From assembly GCA_964632315.1 (NCBI GenBank), contig CAZWEM010000010.1, positions 1-64,000 on the forward strand: 64,000 nucleotides of DNA. Direction: 5' to 3'. The notes beneath the pieces were generated by a model that saw only the letters and a program-made list of their open reading frames with translations, was not told where the DNA came from and did no database searches. Every line of letters begins with the position of its first letter. Within the stretch, counting starts at the first letter, position 1. A program made the translations under genes and the position numbers. The DNA is from an uncultured archaeon (GTDB taxonomy: Archaea > Asgardarchaeota > Lokiarchaeia > Sigyniarchaeales > SOKP01). Below are positions 23,360-47,051 of this stretch, in pieces.

Positions 23360-23461
23360 GCGCGAGTGGTTTAGTGGTATAACGACACGCTCACACCGTG
23401 TAGGTCGAGGGTTCAAACTTATTGAAAAAGCTTCAATCTGGAACAATTCCCTCCTTGCGCA
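23360..23461 (+). tRNA. tRNA-Val(CAC) with a 30-nt intron at position 58/59 (T-loop); CCA not encoded
   Basis: Acceptor GCGCGAG/CTTGCGC+A, D-arm GTTT..TAAC, anticodon arm ACACG-CTCACAC-CGTGT, T-stem GAGGG/CCCTC; T-loop TTCAATT restored on removing 23417-23446. Confidence 0.93.
23417..23446 (+). other. BHB tRNA intron at a non-canonical position
   Basis: Central helix GTTC/GAAC, bulges AA^A and AA^T, internal stem ATTGAA/TTCAAT. Confidence 0.9.
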
Positions 23462-23612: not shown

Positions 23613-25919
23613 TTGGTGATAATTTTATCAGAAAAAAGTGATTTTTTAGCCCATCCTCTTTTAAAAGAGAATAAAGTGATACGTCGAGCGTATCAAGAGA
23701 ATATATTCATTAATTGTTTAAAAAAAAATTGCATGGTGGTTATTCCTACTGGATTAGGAAAAACCATCCTAGCTTTAATGTTAAGCGTGTATCGTCTTTC
23801 AGAATATGAGAATTCAAAAGTAATCTTTTTAGCACCTACTAAACCATTAGTAGATCAACATCATGAATCATTTTTAGAATTAACTAAAATACCTAAAGAA
23901 GAAATGAGTGCTATCACTGGTGCAATATCTCCTGAAGACCGCATTAAAATATGGGACGATTTAAGAATTGTTTTTATGACTCCACAAGTCTTACAGAATG
24001 ACTTGATAACTCAAAGATATTCGATTAGCGATGTTTGTTTATTAATATTTGATGAGTGTCATCGGGCAACAGGGGAATATGCTTATTGTTTTATTGCTCA
24101 AAGATATATGGCTCTTTCTAAATATCCTCAAATATTAGCTTTAACTGCTTCTCCTGGATCTACAGAAGAGAAAATTAATGATATAAAGCAAAATTTGTAT
24201 ATTAACCATACAGAAGTCAGGACAGATTCTGATCGGGATGTAAAACCTTATATCCAAGATGTTGAGACAACTTGGATAAAAATTAAGTTGCCTGAGGAAT
24301 TCTTAGAGATAAAAAAAATATTAATTAAAAAATTTAAATTGACACTCCAATTCCTTAAACAAGCAAGTTTACTAAATAGCTCTGATGTAAATAAAGTTAG
24401 CAGAAAAGATTTAATTAAACTTAACAAGGTGATAAATAGTAATATTAACAATACAAATGATGAAAGGGAATTATCCCAACTATTTATTGCTAAGAAATAT
24501 CATGCTAATGCGATACGGCTATCACATATGGATGAATTAATTGAAACGCAGGGAATACACGCTTTAAAAGATTATATAGAGAAAAATAAACTGAAAATTA
24601 AAAAGAATACTGCAAATAAGTCCCTTAAGGAATTATTTAGGGATTTTGAATTTAAAAAGCTAATGCGACTAGTAGACGAAATTCACTCTACTGGTTTAGT
24701 ACATCCCAAACTGGAAAGATTAAAAGAAATCATACATAAACAGATGAAAGACAATCCCGAATCAAGGATTCTCGTGTTTTGCCATTATAGGGATTCAGTA
24801 AACAACATTGTTCGCTTTCTAAAGGAAGATTCATTAATAAAAGTTCACAAGTTTGTGGGGCAACAAACAAAAAGCTCTGATAAAGGATTAACCCAAAAAC
24901 AACAAATCCAATTGTTAAATGATTTTAAAGAAGGAACCTACAACACATTAATAGGTACGAGTGTTGCTGAGGAAGGATTAGACATTGCAGAATGTGATAT
25001 GGTAATTTTTTATGATGTAGTTCCAAGTGCAATTCGTTCAATACAGAGAAGAGGACGTACTGGTAGAAAAAGAGAAGGTAAAGTAATAATTTTAATAGCA
25101 GAAGGAACACGTGATGAAGGTTATTACTGGGCAGAAAGGAGAAAGGAACAAAACATGAAAAAAAGCTTGAATAATTTGAAAAATAATGATTCTAGAGAAC
25201 AATCGAGTCTATTAGAATATTTAGGGAATTCTAAGAAAAAAAATAAGGAAAATGAGAACTACCAAGATACTTCAGAATTGACTATTTTATGTGATAATAG
25301 AGAAACTGCTTCACCTGTAGTACGAATTCTCTCAACTTTAGGGATTAATATTATACTCAAACAATTGCCAGTGTCTGATTATGTAATCTCCAAATATATA
25401 GGAATAGAGCGAAAATCGGCGCAAGATTTCACGGATTCTATAAAGGATGGAAGAATATTTAATGAATTGATTAATCTTAAGGAGAATTTTGAAAACGCTA
25501 TTTTAATTTTGGAAGGAGATACCTTCTTAAACTCAAATTTAAGTGAAAATGCTCTCTATGGCACAATTAGTTCTATTATAGTAAAATTTGGAATAATGAT
25601 ATATCAAACCAAAAATTCCAAAGAAACTGCAAAATTCTTGTTTCATTTGACCAAAAAAGCCCAAACGGCATCATCTAGTCAAATCAAATTAAGATTTGAT
25701 AAAAAACCAAAAGAAGTTAAAGATTTATTGGAATATGTTATTGCTGGTCTGCCGGGGATAAATTCTCAGAGGGCAAAGAATCTACTTGAAAGATTCAAGA
25801 CTCTTCAAGAAATTTTCAATGCAACTATAGAAGATCTTATGAGTGTGGATAATATTGGAGAAAAAATTGCTCATGATATATATAAATGGAGTAGAACACA
25901 TTATAAAGAAGATTTTTGA
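23613..25919 (+). CDS. hef: Hef (FANCM-like SF2 helicase fused to ERCC4/XPF nuclease)
   Basis: PTGLGKT, DECH, TASPG, QRRGRTGR, ERKS nuclease motif, HhH tail. Confidence 0.95.
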   Translation: MVIILSEKSDFLAHPLLKENKVIRRAYQENIFINCLKKNCMVVIPTGLGKTILALMLSVYRLSEYENSKVIFLAPTKPLVDQHHESFLELTKIPKEEMSAITGAISPEDRIKIWDDLRIVFMTPQVLQNDLITQRYSISDVCLLIFDECHRATGEYAYCFIAQRYMALSKYPQILALTASPGSTEEKINDIKQNLYINHTEVRTDSDRDVKPYIQDVETTWIKIKLPEEFLEIKKILIKKFKLTLQFLKQASLLNSSDVNKVSRKDLIKLNKVINSNINNTNDERELSQLFIAKKYHANAIRLSHMDELIETQGIHALKDYIEKNKLKIKKNTANKSLKELFRDFEFKKLMRLVDEIHSTGLVHPKLERLKEIIHKQMKDNPESRILVFCHYRDSVNNIVRFLKEDSLIKVHKFVGQQTKSSDKGLTQKQQIQLLNDFKEGTYNTLIGTSVAEEGLDIAECDMVIFYDVVPSAIRSIQRRGRTGRKREGKVIILIAEGTRDEGYYWAERRKEQNMKKSLNNLKNNDSREQSSLLEYLGNSKKKNKENENYQDTSELTILCDNRETASPVVRILSTLGINIILKQLPVSDYVISKYIGIERKSAQDFTDSIKDGRIFNELINLKENFENAILILEGDTFLNSNLSENALYGTISSIIVKFGIMIYQTKNSKETAKFLFHLTKKAQTASSSQIKLRFDKKPKEVKDLLEYVIAGLPGINSQRAKNLLERFKTLQEIFNATIEDLMSVDNIGEKIAHDIYKWSRTHYKEDF

Positions 25920-26030
25920 AAGATAAAGTGCCATCAAAAATAAAAAAAATCACTGAACAAAAGATTTTAACCATAAATTTTTTTATTATATTATAATTAA
26001 ATTGAGTTTGAAATTTTCTGGTGACCAAAC

Positions 26031-26653
26031 ATAATAAAATTTAAAGTTGTAGTCGCCGGTGCTAAAAATTAATCCCGAATCTATCGGATATTGAGCAAGA
26101 CGTAGGGAAAACCTCCCTAATTAGGCGCTACGCAACAGGAAAGTTTGATAAGTCAACTTTGTCTACGATAGGTGTCGATTTTGAAACTAAAAAGGTAATT
26201 GTGGATGACATAGAGATCCTACTAAACATATGGGATTTTGCTGGTGAAAAAAAATTTAGATTATTATTACCTTCTTATGTTTCTGGGGCATCTGGGGCTT
26301 TAATTCTATATGACATCACAAATCGAGAGTCATTAAATGATCTTCACGATTGGATAAAAGTTATAACTTCGGTTCCAAACAGTCCCAAAACTAAAATCTT
26401 GGTTGAAGCAAAAATTGATTTAGAAGAACAAAGAGAAGTAAGTACGGAAGATGCTAAAATGTTTTTTGAAAAATACGGTTTTAAAGGAGATATAATTGGA
26501 ACGTCTTCAAAAACGGGTAAAAACGTTGAAACTGTTTTTGAAATGCTTGGACGTGAAATTTTGGAAAGTTCACTTAAAAAATGCCCTAACTGTGGTAAAT
26601 TATATCCCTTGGAATTAAAATTTTGCCAATATTGTGGACAAAAAACAAAATAA
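26031..26653 (+). CDS. Rab-like small GTPase with C-terminal zinc ribbon; intron-split, exons ~26031-26066 and 26099-26653 (start uncertain)
   Basis: Spliced product KFKVVVAGAK|DVGKTSLIRRYATGKF..STIGVDF..WDFAGE..AKID..TSSKTG..CPNC..CQYC; the ORF track start at 26159 lacks the P-loop. Confidence 0.85.
26067..26098 (+). other. Putative BHB-type intron (32 nt) in the GTPase P-loop
   Basis: Contains an in-frame TAA and shifts frame; relaxed central helix GCTA/GAGC, bulges AA^A and AA^G, internal hairpin; excision gives GAKDVGKT. Confidence 0.8.
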
Positions 26654-26708
26654 AAATATTTTTGATTTTTATAATTAAAATAACAATTATTACGTGGGGT
26701 AATTAATA

Positions 26709-27773
26709 ATGGATCATAGATTGGGCGAAGATATTGATGAGATAATTCGTAGATTATCGAAAGAGCAGATAAATTTTAAAGGAAAAGTAATTCTAATTAC
26801 TGGTGGCAATGGTTTTTTAGGTTCTTGGGTATGCGATGTATTAGTAAAGCAAGGTGCAAATTGCATTTGTATTGATAATCTCTCTTCAGGTAGATTTAGA
26901 AACATTGCTCATCTTCTTGATGAACCGAATTTTCGATTTATCAATCATGATATTGCAAAACCTATTTATTTTGGATTAACTCATCATCCAAACGGCATAT
27001 GTGTTGGAGATATTAAAAAAATTGATATTATTATGCACATGGCAAGTCGGGCTTCACCCTTCGAATTTAAAAGATATCCAATACCAATTTTAAAGAGCAA
27101 CACTTTAGGAACTATGAACGCTTTAGGGATAGCTAAAGCACATAACGCCTTATTCTTTTATACAAGTACATCCGAAGTATATGGAAATCCTCCAGATAGT
27201 GCTGTACCTACTTCTGAATCATACTTTGGATATGTTAATCCTGTTGGGCCTAGGAGTTGTTATGATGAATCAAAACGTGCTGGAGAGGCATTTGTTAAAG
27301 CATATGAACTTCAACATGGAATTAAGACGAAAATCGTGAGGATTTTTAACACCTCAGGTCCAAGAATCAGATATGGTCCAGAATACGGACGAGTGGTTCC
27401 AAATTTCATACATCAAGCTCTAAACGATGATGATATTACTGTTTTTGGTGATGGTTCTCAAACTAGGTCTTTCACTTATGTCACAGACGAAGTTGAGGGT
27501 ATTTTAAAAATAGTTCATAAGGATGAAGCTTTAGGGGAAGTAATAAATCTTGGTAACAACAAGGAGTATACCATTTTAGAATTAGCTAATCTTATCAAAG
27601 AATTGACTAATTCAAATTCCAAAATAGTTTTTAAACCATTACCAATTGATGATCCAGTTCGAAGATGTCCAGATATTGGTAAAGCTAAAACATTATTGAA
27701 TTGGGAACCTAGGACATCTTTAAAAACAGCATTAGAAAAGACCATAGCTTGGTTTAAAAAAAATGAAGAGTAA
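26709..27773 (+). CDS. UDP-glucuronate decarboxylase-like extended SDR
   Basis: TGGNGFLGS, STSEVYG, GPRSCYDESKR, GDGSQTRSF. Confidence 0.92.
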   Translation: MDHRLGEDIDEIIRRLSKEQINFKGKVILITGGNGFLGSWVCDVLVKQGANCICIDNLSSGRFRNIAHLLDEPNFRFINHDIAKPIYFGLTHHPNGICVGDIKKIDIIMHMASRASPFEFKRYPIPILKSNTLGTMNALGIAKAHNALFFYTSTSEVYGNPPDSAVPTSESYFGYVNPVGPRSCYDESKRAGEAFVKAYELQHGIKTKIVRIFNTSGPRIRYGPEYGRVVPNFIHQALNDDDITVFGDGSQTRSFTYVTDEVEGILKIVHKDEALGEVINLGNNKEYTILELANLIKELTNSNSKIVFKPLPIDDPVRRCPDIGKAKTLLNWEPRTSLKTALEKTIAWFKKNEE

Positions 27774-46380: not shown

Positions 46381-47051
46381 TAATTCCAAATTGGTTTCGC
46401 GTGAATTTCAATACCTTTTGCGAAATAATGGATTCAAATCCCCCGTAAAAATGGTCTGCACCCTCAATAATAAATTTTGATTTTGGTTCCATGTAAGAAT
46501 CGTAATGGAAGTCAAATCTATCAAAAGAAGCAATATTATCCTTATCTCCTTGAATAAAAAATTTAGGTTTTGTAGTTTGGGTTGATTCCTTAAATCCTTC
46601 TCCCATAAAGTCCCAAGGAAAAGATATTGCACAGAAACCTATGACTATTTCGGAATAATTGACAAGGCTACATCCAATAGCAGCTCCATACGAGTATCCA
46701 CATATTAAAATCTTATCAAAATTTTCATTAGTCAAATAATCAATGCAAGTTTTAACATCTGTTAACTCTCCATTTCCTTCATATTGTTTACCAGCTGATT
46801 TTCCTACTCCTCGAAAATTAAAACGTAGACATGAAATATTATTTGTTAGTAATTCATTAAATATGCTCGATATTACATTATTATACATATTACCCCCATA
46901 TTTTCCCTTTCCTTGAGAAAGTCAAGTGAAATTGAGGATGGGGGTGGCAAAGTAATACTATTTTATTTATTTGATTTGTCTTCTTACGAGAAATTTCAGC
47001 TTCTAAAACATTATCTTCTCCTTTAATTATTATGTTTTTAGAGTCAAGCAT
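46373..47051 (-). CDS. Alpha/beta-fold hydrolase, intron-split (exons 47051-46933 and 46901-46373; 215 aa spliced)
   Basis: Exon 1 MLDSK..LEAE..LLCHPHPQ joins exon 2 YGGNMYNNV..RFNFRGVGKS..GYSYG..QGDKD..GADHF. Confidence 0.9.
46902..46932 (-). other. Putative BHB-type intron (31 nt) in the hydrolase gene
   Basis: Central helix UCCU/GGGA, bulges CA^A and AA^A, intron stem UUUC(A)CUUGA/UCAAGGAAA; the unspliced frame stops at TAA. Confidence 0.88.

What the first reader, a model, noticed from the sequence alone, without database searches (positions are those of the whole stretch)
26040..26136. 32-nt BHB-like intron splitting the P-loop of a Rab-like GTPase
Seen: one frame reads FKVVVAGAK then AAT TAA; another resumes DVGKTSLIRRY at 26099. 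Removing 26067-26098 gives GAKDVGKT. G26061-C26096, C26062-G26095 and U26063-A26094 plus one A.G mismatch form the central helix, and its two bulges put the cuts exactly 32 nt apart. The exons also pair (GTTG-TAG-CGCC with GGCG-CTA-CAAC) around a TAGGG/CCCTA hairpin. The downstream gene is intact. Inference: splicing is required for an active GTPase and could be a control point.
Basis: partly seen in the sequence, partly recalled or inferred. Interest (0 to 1): 0.88.

Follow-up and report, generated by a model that had tools for sequence, protein, structure and literature searches.

The report
tRNA-type mini-intron splits Asgard GTPase gene
A 32-base insert of the kind normally cut out of tRNAs splits the nucleotide-binding loop of a conserved Rab-like GTPase gene in a Loki-type (Asgard) archaeon, and comparison with about 200 related genes says the message must be spliced to make the protein, which papers I could search document for only one archaeal coding gene (cbf5).

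Summary
Removing 26067-26098 joins exon 1 (26031-26066) to exon 2 (26099-26653) and gives GAKDVGKT, the P-loop that intronless orthologs encode contiguously.

The insert is real DNA: contigs from three studies carry it. It is not a decaying pseudogene:
- Five alleles that all carry the 32-nt insert differ at about 39% of synonymous sites, with dN/dS of 0.04-0.06.
- The insert itself differs at only about 6% of positions.
- The spliced protein keeps all 108 columns that are invariant in congeners.

Two other lineages carry homologous 38-nt and 33-nt inserts at the same site. Their central helix is kept by compensatory changes (U-A to C-G). Other relatives carry 30-nt inserts at two further sites in the same gene.

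The genome encodes two EndA paralogs and RtcB. Its uS8 and TBP genes, and a tRNA-Val in this window, carry inserts with the same geometry.

The missing ATG is explained: ATA, ATT, ATG or TTG occupy the same codon across orthologs, behind a GGTG ribosome-binding site.

No RNA data were available, so splicing is inferred. The "control point" idea is untested. Earlier notes of this scan report similar introns elsewhere in this genome.

The parts
26020..26024 (+). Ribosome-binding site (GGTGA), 6 nt upstream of the start codon
   Evidence: A GGTG(A) motif is conserved at this distance in the orthologs that start with ATT or ATA.
26031..26033 (+). Non-canonical start codon ATA
   Evidence: An in-frame TGA lies at 26022-24, and no ATG, GTG or TTG follows it before the end of exon 1. 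The same codon position is ATG, ATT, ATA or TTG in orthologs.
26031..26066 (+). Exon 1: 12 codons, (M)IKFKVVVAGAK, the first half of the P-loop
   Evidence: It is colinear with the first 12 codons of all orthologs, and differences from the other intron-bearing sequences are synonymous.
26067..26098 (+). 32-nt BHB-type intron. It contains an in-frame TAA at 26070-72 and shifts the frame.
   Evidence: It is unique in the genome. It differs at about 6% of positions among five alleles, against about 39% at synonymous sites.
26061..26064 (+). 5' strand of central helix H. It lies in exon 1 (the Ala codon plus the first A of the Lys codon).
   Evidence: It pairs with 26093-26096: 3 standard pairs plus A.G here, 4 of 4 in the 38-nt and 33-nt relatives. 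There is a U-A to C-G double change.
26093..26096 (+). 3' strand of central helix H (in the intron)
   Evidence: In allele L244, C26096 is U, which keeps a G.U pair.
26065..26067 (+). 5' bulge (AAA). Inferred cut after its second base (26066|26067).
   Evidence: The cut register is fixed by the orthologs' junction and by the only register with a 4-bp H in relatives. The same rule restores tRNA-Val, uS8 and TBP.
26097..26099 (+). 3' bulge (AAG). Inferred cut after its second base (26098|26099).
26068..26092 (+). Inner arm h'. 26068-72 pairs with 26088-92 (3 of 5 pairs here, 4-5 of 5 in relatives). It is capped by a hairpin, 26075-78 with 26084-87.
   Evidence: the CCG/CGG pairs are invariant. 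Alleles L249 and L255-257 have A26088 replaced by U, which creates the missing A-U pair.
26099..26653 (+). Exon 2: the rest of the GTPase (G1 GKT, Rab-like switch regions, G3-G5), a C-terminal CxxC...CxxC zinc ribbon, and the stop codon
   Evidence: Pfam Ras PF00071, E = 8e-40, profile positions 10-161 of 162, plus zinc-ribbon families. Orthologs are 71-88% identical.
26046..26057 (+). Exon-1 strand of a long-range exon-exon helix. It may stand in for the weak outer helix.
   Evidence: It pairs with 26124-26136 in the minimum-energy fold. Duplex energies of the four intron-bearing species rank 1, 2, 5 and 9 of 45 orthologs (Mann-Whitney p = 0.0015; the taxa are not independent).
26103..26136 (+). 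Exon-2 hairpin (26103-20) and the exon-2 strand of the exon-exon helix (26124-36)
   Evidence: The hairpin is present in all four intron-bearing species, and also in some intronless ones.

Best explanation
The 32 bases at 26067-26098 are a genuine archaeal bulge-helix-bulge (tRNA-type) intron inside the coding sequence of a conserved Rab-like small GTPase. The host is a Promethearchaeota (Loki-type Asgard) archaeon.

Proposed mechanism:
1. The gene is transcribed from the AT-rich promoter region upstream of 26020.
2. In the pre-mRNA, exon bases 26061-64 pair with intron bases 26093-96, and the two A-rich 3-nt bulges are displayed on either side.
3. The heteromeric splicing endonuclease (the two EndA paralogs on contigs C28 and C8) cuts after the second base of each bulge.
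4. RtcB (contig C26) joins the exons.
5. Only then does translation from the AUA start at 26031 read through GAKDVGKT and produce the 195-residue GTPase.

Unspliced RNA yields a 13-residue peptide.

Shown here:
- the anatomy of the insert;
- that the insert is real DNA;
- orthologs that are contiguous at exactly this junction;
- covariation in the structure;
- selection on both the exons and the intron;
- presence of the splicing enzymes;
- the same geometry in a tRNA and in essential genes of the same genome.

Inferred: the splicing event itself and the enzymes that carry it out.

The intron is most likely a tolerated passenger that has been lost precisely many times, rather than a dedicated regulator.
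For: 1. **Junction.** Of about 41 congeneric genomes, all but four encode ...AGAK[D/N]VGKT... without interruption, exactly the sequence predicted after splicing. The same holds for 76 of 80 genome-collection loci and 75 of 80 metagenome loci; most of the remainder are cut off by a contig end or fall outside my search pattern.
2. **Same-site introns elsewhere.** G023 and G057 carry 38 nt; G055 and metagenome L187 carry 33 nt. All are homologous to the 32-nt one.
3. **Structure.** On six distinct sequences 87.8% of cells are paired, against 27-46% when partners are slid. Four pairs change on both sides, and 0-1 of 500 shuffles reach the observed values. A synonymous GCU-to-GCC change in the exon is matched by an A-to-G change in the intron.
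4. **Selection.**
   - Five alleles that all carry the 32-nt intron have dS 0.37-0.60 and dN/dS 0.035-0.062.
   - The intron differs at 5.6% of positions, against about 39% at synonymous sites (Fisher p about 2e-4).
   - G023 versus G057, both intron-bearing, give dS 0.75 and dN/dS 0.06.
   - The G000 protein keeps 108 of 108 columns that are invariant in congeners, and its dN/dS to the consensus, 0.10, lies in the range of intronless taxa.
5. **Real DNA.** Contigs from three studies span the insert. At least 10 environmental contigs with the same Hef-GTPase-epimerase neighbours carry it.
6. **Machinery.** There are two EndA paralogs; the one on C28 is closest to the chains deposited with crenarchaeal heterotetramer entries (3p1z_B, 3ajv_B, 2zyz_B). 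There is one RtcB. Asgard archaea are reported to have the broad-specificity (alpha-beta)2 EndA with the L1 loop (PMC5829648).
7. **Positive controls with the same cut rule in the same genome.**
   - The tRNA-Val at about 23360-23461 becomes recognisable to ARAGORN only after a 30-nt insert is removed.
   - uS8 (29 nt) and TBP (30 nt) are restored to their consensus motifs.
   - A hydrolase in this window is restored by removing 31 nt.
8. **Other sites in the same gene.** There are 30-nt BHB inserts before WDFAG in G010, and after DFAGE in metagenome loci L231 and L232.
Against: - No RNA evidence exists. No RNA run holds this locus, so splicing is inferred.
- The G000 copy is the least canonical of the set. 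The fourth position of H is an A.G mismatch, two of the first six h' positions are unpaired, and the outer helix beside the bulges is only 2 bp.
- The BHB is not the minimum-energy fold, and folding energy is not better than for shuffled sequence.
- Covariation rests on three independent lineages only.
- An AUA start codon is unusual and would give weak initiation, so expression could be low.
Confidence: 0.88

Rival explanations
1. The insert is an inactivating insertion, and the gene is a decaying pseudogene in this lineage.
For: - An in-frame stop and a frameshift interrupt the P-loop, and there is no canonical start codon.
- Public gene callers report only truncated products of 150-178 residues for this lineage.
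Against: - Five intron-bearing alleles have diverged to dS 0.37-0.60 with dN/dS about 0.05, without a single stop or indel in the exons.
- All 108 invariant columns are kept.
- The insert is about seven times more conserved than synonymous sites.
- ATA and ATT starts are shared by many intact orthologs.
Confidence: 0.03
2. The RNA is not spliced. Ribosomes bypass the insert by translational hopping, as in phage T4 gene 60, or by frameshifting.
For: A stop codon follows shortly after the Lys codon, and a hairpin lies in the gap. These superficially resemble a bypass cassette.
Against: - Take-off and landing codons do not match: AAA or AAG against CAA or UAA at the 3' end of the gap.
- The gap lengths of 32, 38 and 33 nt, and the compensatory changes, conserve a BHB rather than a bypass signal.
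- A frameshift would leave 10-11 foreign residues inside the P-loop.
- The 33-nt version is in frame but ends in TAA.
- The same geometry interrupts a tRNA, which is not translated at all.
Confidence: 0.02
3. It is a real spliced intron whose removal is regulated, so that EndA/RtcB activity gates production of this GTPase. This is the first reader's 'control point', analogous to HAC1/XBP1 unconventional splicing.
For: - The G000 motif is sub-optimal: an A.G mismatch in H and a weak outer helix.
- The start codon is weak (AUA).
- The intron sequence is strongly conserved within its lineage.
- The exon-exon pairing is stronger in intron-bearing genes.
Against: - Sister species, and most of the genus, lack the intron and keep the same protein, so any regulatory role is dispensable.
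- Similar inserts sit in housekeeping genes such as uS8 and TBP, which points to a general, constitutive process.
- No data on conditions or on RNA are available.
Confidence: 0.1
4. The insert is an assembly or binning artefact, or a strain-specific sequencing error.
For: The genome is a 119-contig metagenome-assembled genome with 8.6% estimated contamination.
Against: - Contigs from three independent studies span the insert, two of them without any difference.
- Several further assemblies from JGI and ENA samples carry it with the same neighbouring genes.
Confidence: 0.01

Closest known systems
BHB intron in the cbf5 (pseudouridine synthase) pre-mRNA of Desulfurococcales and Sulfolobales (Watanabe 2002; Yoshinari 2006; Yokobori 2009, PMC2738675)
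   Same: - A short intron inside an archaeal protein-coding sequence.
- An often relaxed BHB at the exon-intron borders.
- Dependence on a hetero-oligomeric, broad-specificity splicing endonuclease.
- A patchy distribution explained by lineage-specific precise losses.
   Different: - A different phylum (Asgard/Promethearchaeota) and a different gene (a Rab-like GTPase).
- Three separate insertion sites in one gene family.
- Splicing is shown experimentally for cbf5 and only inferred here.
- Here the intron is one of several in coding genes of the same genome (uS8, TBP and a hydrolase were checked here).
Archaeal tRNA introns at non-canonical positions, processed by (alpha-beta)2 or epsilon2 EndA (Marck and Grosjean 2003; PMC5829648; Asgard tRNA census, bioRxiv 10.64898/2026.10.13.758758)
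   Same: - A 4-bp helix flanked by 3-nt bulges, with cuts after the second bulge base.
- A size of about 30 nt.
- A-rich bulges identical in style to the T-loop intron of the tRNA-Val 2.6 kb upstream in this window.
   Different: - The host RNA is an mRNA, with no tRNA body to help recognition.
- The exon half of the motif is constrained by codons.
Unconventional cytoplasmic splicing of HAC1/XBP1 mRNA by Ire1 and tRNA ligase (RtcB in metazoa)
   Same: - A small intron is removed from an mRNA by an endonuclease plus a tRNA ligase, without a spliceosome.
- Removal changes the reading frame.
- RtcB is the likely ligase.
   Different: - The nuclease is Ire1, which recognises twin stem-loops rather than a BHB.
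- That event is a regulated stress switch. No regulation is shown here.
Splicing-endonuclease cleavage of the HVO_1309 mRNA in Haloferax volcanii (PMC7714728)
   Same: An mRNA carries a motif that is cut by the archaeal splicing endonuclease.
   Different: As far as I read, that paper shows cleavage of the mRNA by the endonuclease; it does not report restoration of an interrupted reading frame.

Membership tests
Archaeal BHB (splicing-endonuclease) intron | [quoted passage not shown] | tested here: met
   - Helix 26061-64 pairs with 26093-96; the bulges are 26065-67 and 26097-99.
- There are 3 standard pairs plus A.G in G000, and 4 of 4 in the 38-nt and 33-nt homologs.
- This is a relaxed form in G000.
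Archaeal BHB (splicing-endonuclease) intron | Symmetric cuts inside the bulges give a functional mature RNA | tested here: met
   - Cutting after the second bulge base removes exactly 32 nt.
- The result reproduces the contiguous sequence of the intronless orthologs.
Archaeal BHB (splicing-endonuclease) intron | Flanking helices h (outer) and h' (inner), as in the canonical hBHBh' motif | tested here: inconclusive
   - h' is present: 4 of 6 positions pair here, 5 of 6 in relatives, plus a conserved hairpin.
- The adjacent outer helix is only 2 bp.
- A long-range exon-exon helix may replace it.
Archaeal BHB (splicing-endonuclease) intron | The structure is conserved by covariation across homologs | tested here: met
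   - 87.8% of cells are paired, against 27-46% in slid controls.
- Four pairs show double changes.
- 0-1 of 500 shuffles reach the observed values.
- Only six sequences from three lineages were available.
Archaeal BHB (splicing-endonuclease) intron | The host encodes a splicing endonuclease able to cut relaxed motifs, and an RNA ligase | tested here: met
   - Two PF01974 paralogs; the C28 copy is closest to the chains of crenarchaeal heterotetramer entries.
- One RtcB.
- The L1 loop itself was not examined. Its presence in Asgard archaea comes from PMC5829648.
Archaeal BHB (splicing-endonuclease) intron | Spliced RNA, and/or a circular intron, is observed | not testable with these tools
   No RNA run holds the locus.
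Ras-superfamily small GTPase, Rab-like | G1 P-loop GxxxxGK[ST] and the Ras-fold profile | tested here: met
   - Exon 2 matches PF00071 positions 10-161 with E = 8e-40.
- The spliced junction gives GAKDVGKT.
- Rab-like TIGVDF and LYDIT motifs are read directly.
Ras-superfamily small GTPase, Rab-like | Catalytic Gln in G3 (DxxGQ), NKxD in G4, and a C-terminal prenylation signal | tested here: not met
   - G3 is DFAGE.
- G4 is AKID.
- The tail is a CxxC...CxxC zinc ribbon.
- The protein is therefore Rab-like, not a typical Rab.
Pseudogene | Relaxed selection (dN/dS near 1), with accumulating stops and indels | tested here: not met
   - dN/dS is 0.035-0.10.
- No exon stops or indels occur in any of at least 12 intron-bearing sequences.
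- All 108 of 108 invariant columns are kept.
Programmed translational bypass (T4 gene 60 type) | Matched take-off and landing codons flank the gap | tested here: not met
   The take-off codon is AAA or AAG; the last three bases of the gap are CAA or UAA.

The most novel reading that the evidence does not exclude
The GTPase intron is one visible member of a heritable, turning-over population of roughly 30-nt tRNA-type introns in the protein-coding genes of this Asgard lineage. On this reading:
- Introns have been inserted at least three independent times in this one eukaryote-like GTPase gene.
- They have been erased precisely many times, perhaps through spliced-RNA intermediates or by homing-like transfer to the same site.
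- mRNA splicing by EndA/RtcB is therefore a routine step of gene expression in close archaeal relatives of eukaryotes.
- Many Asgard genes are mis-annotated as truncated.
Probability: 0.6. Interest if true: 0.85.

Novelty: new member of a known kind. Interest (0 to 1): 0.7.

Why it matters
**Rarity.** In the papers I could search, archaeal introns in coding sequences were documented for essentially one gene, cbf5. A 2020 paper still counts the BHB motif in "one mRNA" (PMC7714728).

**What is added here.** A member of the small-GTPase family that links Asgard archaea to eukaryotic membrane trafficking needs tRNA-type splicing to rebuild its catalytic P-loop. The same gene shows three intron sites and repeated precise losses within one genus. 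That makes intron gain and loss, and protein-enzyme mRNA splicing, directly testable in the closest prokaryotic relatives of eukaryotes.

**Practical consequences:**
- Gene callers truncate these genes to 150-178 residues, or start them at an internal GTG, so Asgard proteomes and counts of eukaryotic signature proteins are biased.
- AUA and AUU start codons behind a strong ribosome-binding site are missed as well.

Tried and rejected
- **RNA evidence.** No RNA holder is listed for the locus. Only DNA contigs could be laid on it.
- **Thermodynamic folding.** The z-scores are -1.16 and +0.60, and the minimum-energy fold uses a shifted register rather than the BHB. Energy alone neither supports nor refutes the motif.
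- **Rfam.** There are no matches in 25000-27500.
- **ARAGORN on the window.** It finds no tRNA, although an intron-bearing tRNA-Val is present.
- **Repeat or mobile element.** The 32 nt have no other copy in the genome.
- **Paralogs.** None of more than 50 other Ras-like genes in the genome has an interrupted P-loop.
- **De novo genome-wide scan.** I required a 4-bp H, h' at 5 of 6 or better, and healing of the reading frame.
  - It gave 1273 loci, against 1181-1258 with shifted partners, so it had no usable specificity. Junctions between adjacent genes swamp it.
  - The last control timed out.
  - I therefore make no estimate of the number of such introns.
- **Look-up of cluster member P0122.** It is not on record.

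Full report
**Observation**

The window is part of contig C10 of a 4.45-Mb, roughly 31% G+C metagenome-assembled genome with 62 Ras-like GTPase matches. Related records are titled Promethearchaeota/Promethearchaeia, the Loki-type Asgard archaea. The best-matching DNA runs are from salt marshes.

- After an in-frame TGA at 26022-24, the frame runs ATA ATA AAA TTT ... GCT AAA and then AAT TAA.
- A second frame opens at 26099 with DVGKTSLIRRY and runs to the stop at 26651-53.
- Exon 2 matches the Pfam Ras profile from position 10 to 161 of 162 (E = 8e-40) and ends in a zinc ribbon. The missing nine profile positions are what exon 1 encodes.
- Removing 26067-26098 gives GAKDVGKT.

**Is it an intron or damage?**

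I collected orthologs from 41 congeneric genomes, 80 genome-collection loci and 80 metagenome loci.
- Nearly all encode (M/I)IKFKV.VAGAK[D/N]VGKT without interruption. This is exactly the predicted spliced product.
- Four species genomes are interrupted at the identical junction: G000 (32 nt), G023 and G057 (38 nt), and G055 (33 nt).
- So are metagenome contigs L183 and L187, and the members of a 27-sequence protein cluster that I examined. That cluster is 95% identical to G000, and gene callers truncated its members to 150-178 residues.
- The three intron types align with one another.

**Structure**

Take the canonical geometry: a 4-bp helix, 3-nt bulges, and cuts after the second bulge base.
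- The only register compatible with the orthologs' junction gives a 4 of 4 helix in the 38-nt and 33-nt introns. In G000 it gives 3 pairs plus A.G.
- On six distinct sequences, 87.8% of cells pair, against 27-46% when partners are slid. Four pairs change on both sides, and 0-1 of 500 shuffles reach the observed values.
- A synonymous GCU-to-GCC change in exon 1 is matched by an A-to-G change in the intron.
- Within the G000 lineage, C26096U keeps a G.U pair, and A26088U creates an A-U pair that G000 lacks.
- The helix directly outside the bulges is only 2 bp, so the motif is relaxed.
It may substitute for the outer helix. This point is an inference.
- Folding energy alone is unremarkable.

**Selection**

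- Five alleles that all carry the 32-nt intron differ by dS 0.37-0.60 with dN/dS 0.035-0.062. None has a stop or an indel in the exons.
- The intron differs at only 5.6% of positions, against about 39% at synonymous sites (Fisher p about 2e-4).
- G023 and G057, which both carry the intron, give dS 0.75 and dN/dS 0.06.
- G000's dN/dS to the genus consensus is 0.10, inside the range of intronless taxa.
- Its spliced protein keeps all 108 columns that are invariant in congeners.

A pseudogene is therefore excluded for practical purposes. The insert itself is under constraint.

**Reality of the DNA**

Contigs from three studies span the insert, two of them without any difference. The insert has no other copy in the genome.

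**Start codon**

- The first codon is ATA here.
- In orthologs the same position is ATG, ATT, ATA or TTG.
- The ATT and ATA forms sit 6-8 nt behind a conserved GGTG(A) motif.
- Gene callers consequently start such orthologs at an internal GTG.
- Two paralogs in this genome likewise lack any canonical start behind an AGGTG or GAGGGG motif.

**Machinery and positive controls**

- The genome has two EndA paralogs. One is closest to the chains of crenarchaeal heterotetramer entries. The other is more distant and, by my reading of the sequence, lacks the catalytic His.
- It has one RtcB.
- Asgard archaea are reported to have the broad-specificity (alpha-beta)2 enzyme (PMC5829648).
- The same cut rule restores four other genes:
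  - a tRNA-Val(CAC) 2.6 kb upstream in this window (30-nt T-loop intron; ARAGORN recognises it only after removal);
  - the uS8 gene (29 nt, giving IGEFE...);
  - the TBP gene (30 nt, giving QNIVAS);
  - an alpha/beta hydrolase in this window (31 nt).
- ARAGORN finds only 29 tRNAs in the genome, 18 of them called with introns. This fits the heavily interrupted Asgard tRNA genes described in a 2026 preprint.

**Evolution**

- In a maximum-likelihood tree of 44 orthologs, the site-1 intron sits in three separate places. Each intron-bearing species has intronless close relatives with strong support, for example G055 with G053 and G057 with G006.
- Because the introns are homologous, one old gain followed by many precise losses is the simplest account. 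Transfer to the same site cannot be excluded.
- The same gene has 30-nt BHB inserts at two further sites. One is before WDFAG in G010 (H 4 of 4, h' 6 of 6). The other is after DFAGE in two metagenome contigs.

**Rivals**

- Translational bypass fails on unmatched take-off and landing codons, and on the BHB covariation.
- Frameshifting would leave foreign residues in the P-loop.
- An assembly artefact is excluded by the independent contigs.
- The 'control point' idea is possible but unsupported. Most congeners lack the intron, and similar inserts sit in housekeeping genes.

**Comparison with what is known**

- The closest precedent is the cbf5 pre-mRNA intron of Crenarchaeota. It has the same kind of relaxed BHB, the same dependence on a heteromeric EndA, and lineage-specific losses (PMC2738675).
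- My literature searches found no paper on BHB introns in Asgard coding genes.
- Earlier notes of this scan report similar mini-introns in other genes of this genome and, in another genome, in a gene that shares about half of this protein's short words. I re-checked uS8, TBP, the tRNA-Val and the hydrolase myself.

**Verdict**

This is a real, conserved, tRNA-type intron in a coding gene, and a new member of the cbf5 kind. Splicing is inferred, not observed.

Noticed in passing
window 26031-26033; also L032, L035, L037-L039, L041-L048 and others; G000:C53 near 28300 (-) and G000:C15 near 83000 (+): ATA, ATT and possibly ATC appear to serve as start codons behind strong GGTG or AGGTG ribosome-binding sites. 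In this ortholog set, 22 of 76 genome loci and 33 of 75 metagenome loci start with ATT or ATA where others have ATG. Two paralogs in G000 also lack any canonical start. Gene callers then start at an internal GTG and cut off the P-loop.
   Followed up: partly
L076 (= G010:C72, also L049 and L100), between the LLNI and WDFAG codons: A second intron site in the same GTPase gene: a 30-nt insert carrying a TGA, with near-canonical BHB geometry (H 4 of 4, h' 6 of 6, and a long exon-exon outer helix).
   Followed up: yes
L231 and L232 (metagenome contigs), directly after the DFAGE codons: A third intron site in a more distant ortholog (75% identity): a 30-nt insert with two stops and H 4 of 4.
   Followed up: partly
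window about 23360-23461 (+): A tRNA-Val(CAC) interrupted by a 30-nt intron in the T-loop. ARAGORN misses it until the insert is removed. It has the same helix-plus-AA bulge signature as the GTPase intron.
   Followed up: yes
window about 46895-46945 (-): A 31-nt BHB insert in an alpha/beta hydrolase gene. Removing it restores HPHPQYGGNMYNN in one frame.
   Followed up: partly
G000:C35:14222-14622 (-) and G000:C18:18785-19336 (+): The uS8 and TBP genes of this genome are each broken by an insert of 29-30 nt with the same geometry. Removal restores the family consensus motifs.
   Followed up: yes
window 26099-26653 (protein P0001): The GTPase has Glu in place of the catalytic Gln (DFAGE), AKID in place of NKxD, and a C-terminal four-Cys zinc ribbon instead of a prenylation signal. 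All three features are conserved across the orthologs seen.
   Followed up: no
L230 (metagenome contig): One ortholog has an in-frame 8-residue acidic insertion (no stop) in the loop before the LLNxWD strand. This looks like a true protein-level insertion rather than an intron.
   Followed up: no
whole genome G000: ARAGORN finds only 29 tRNA genes, 18 of them called with introns and several with implausible calls (introns over 1 kb, a 'stop' anticodon). Many tRNA genes are probably hidden by non-canonical introns.
   Followed up: no
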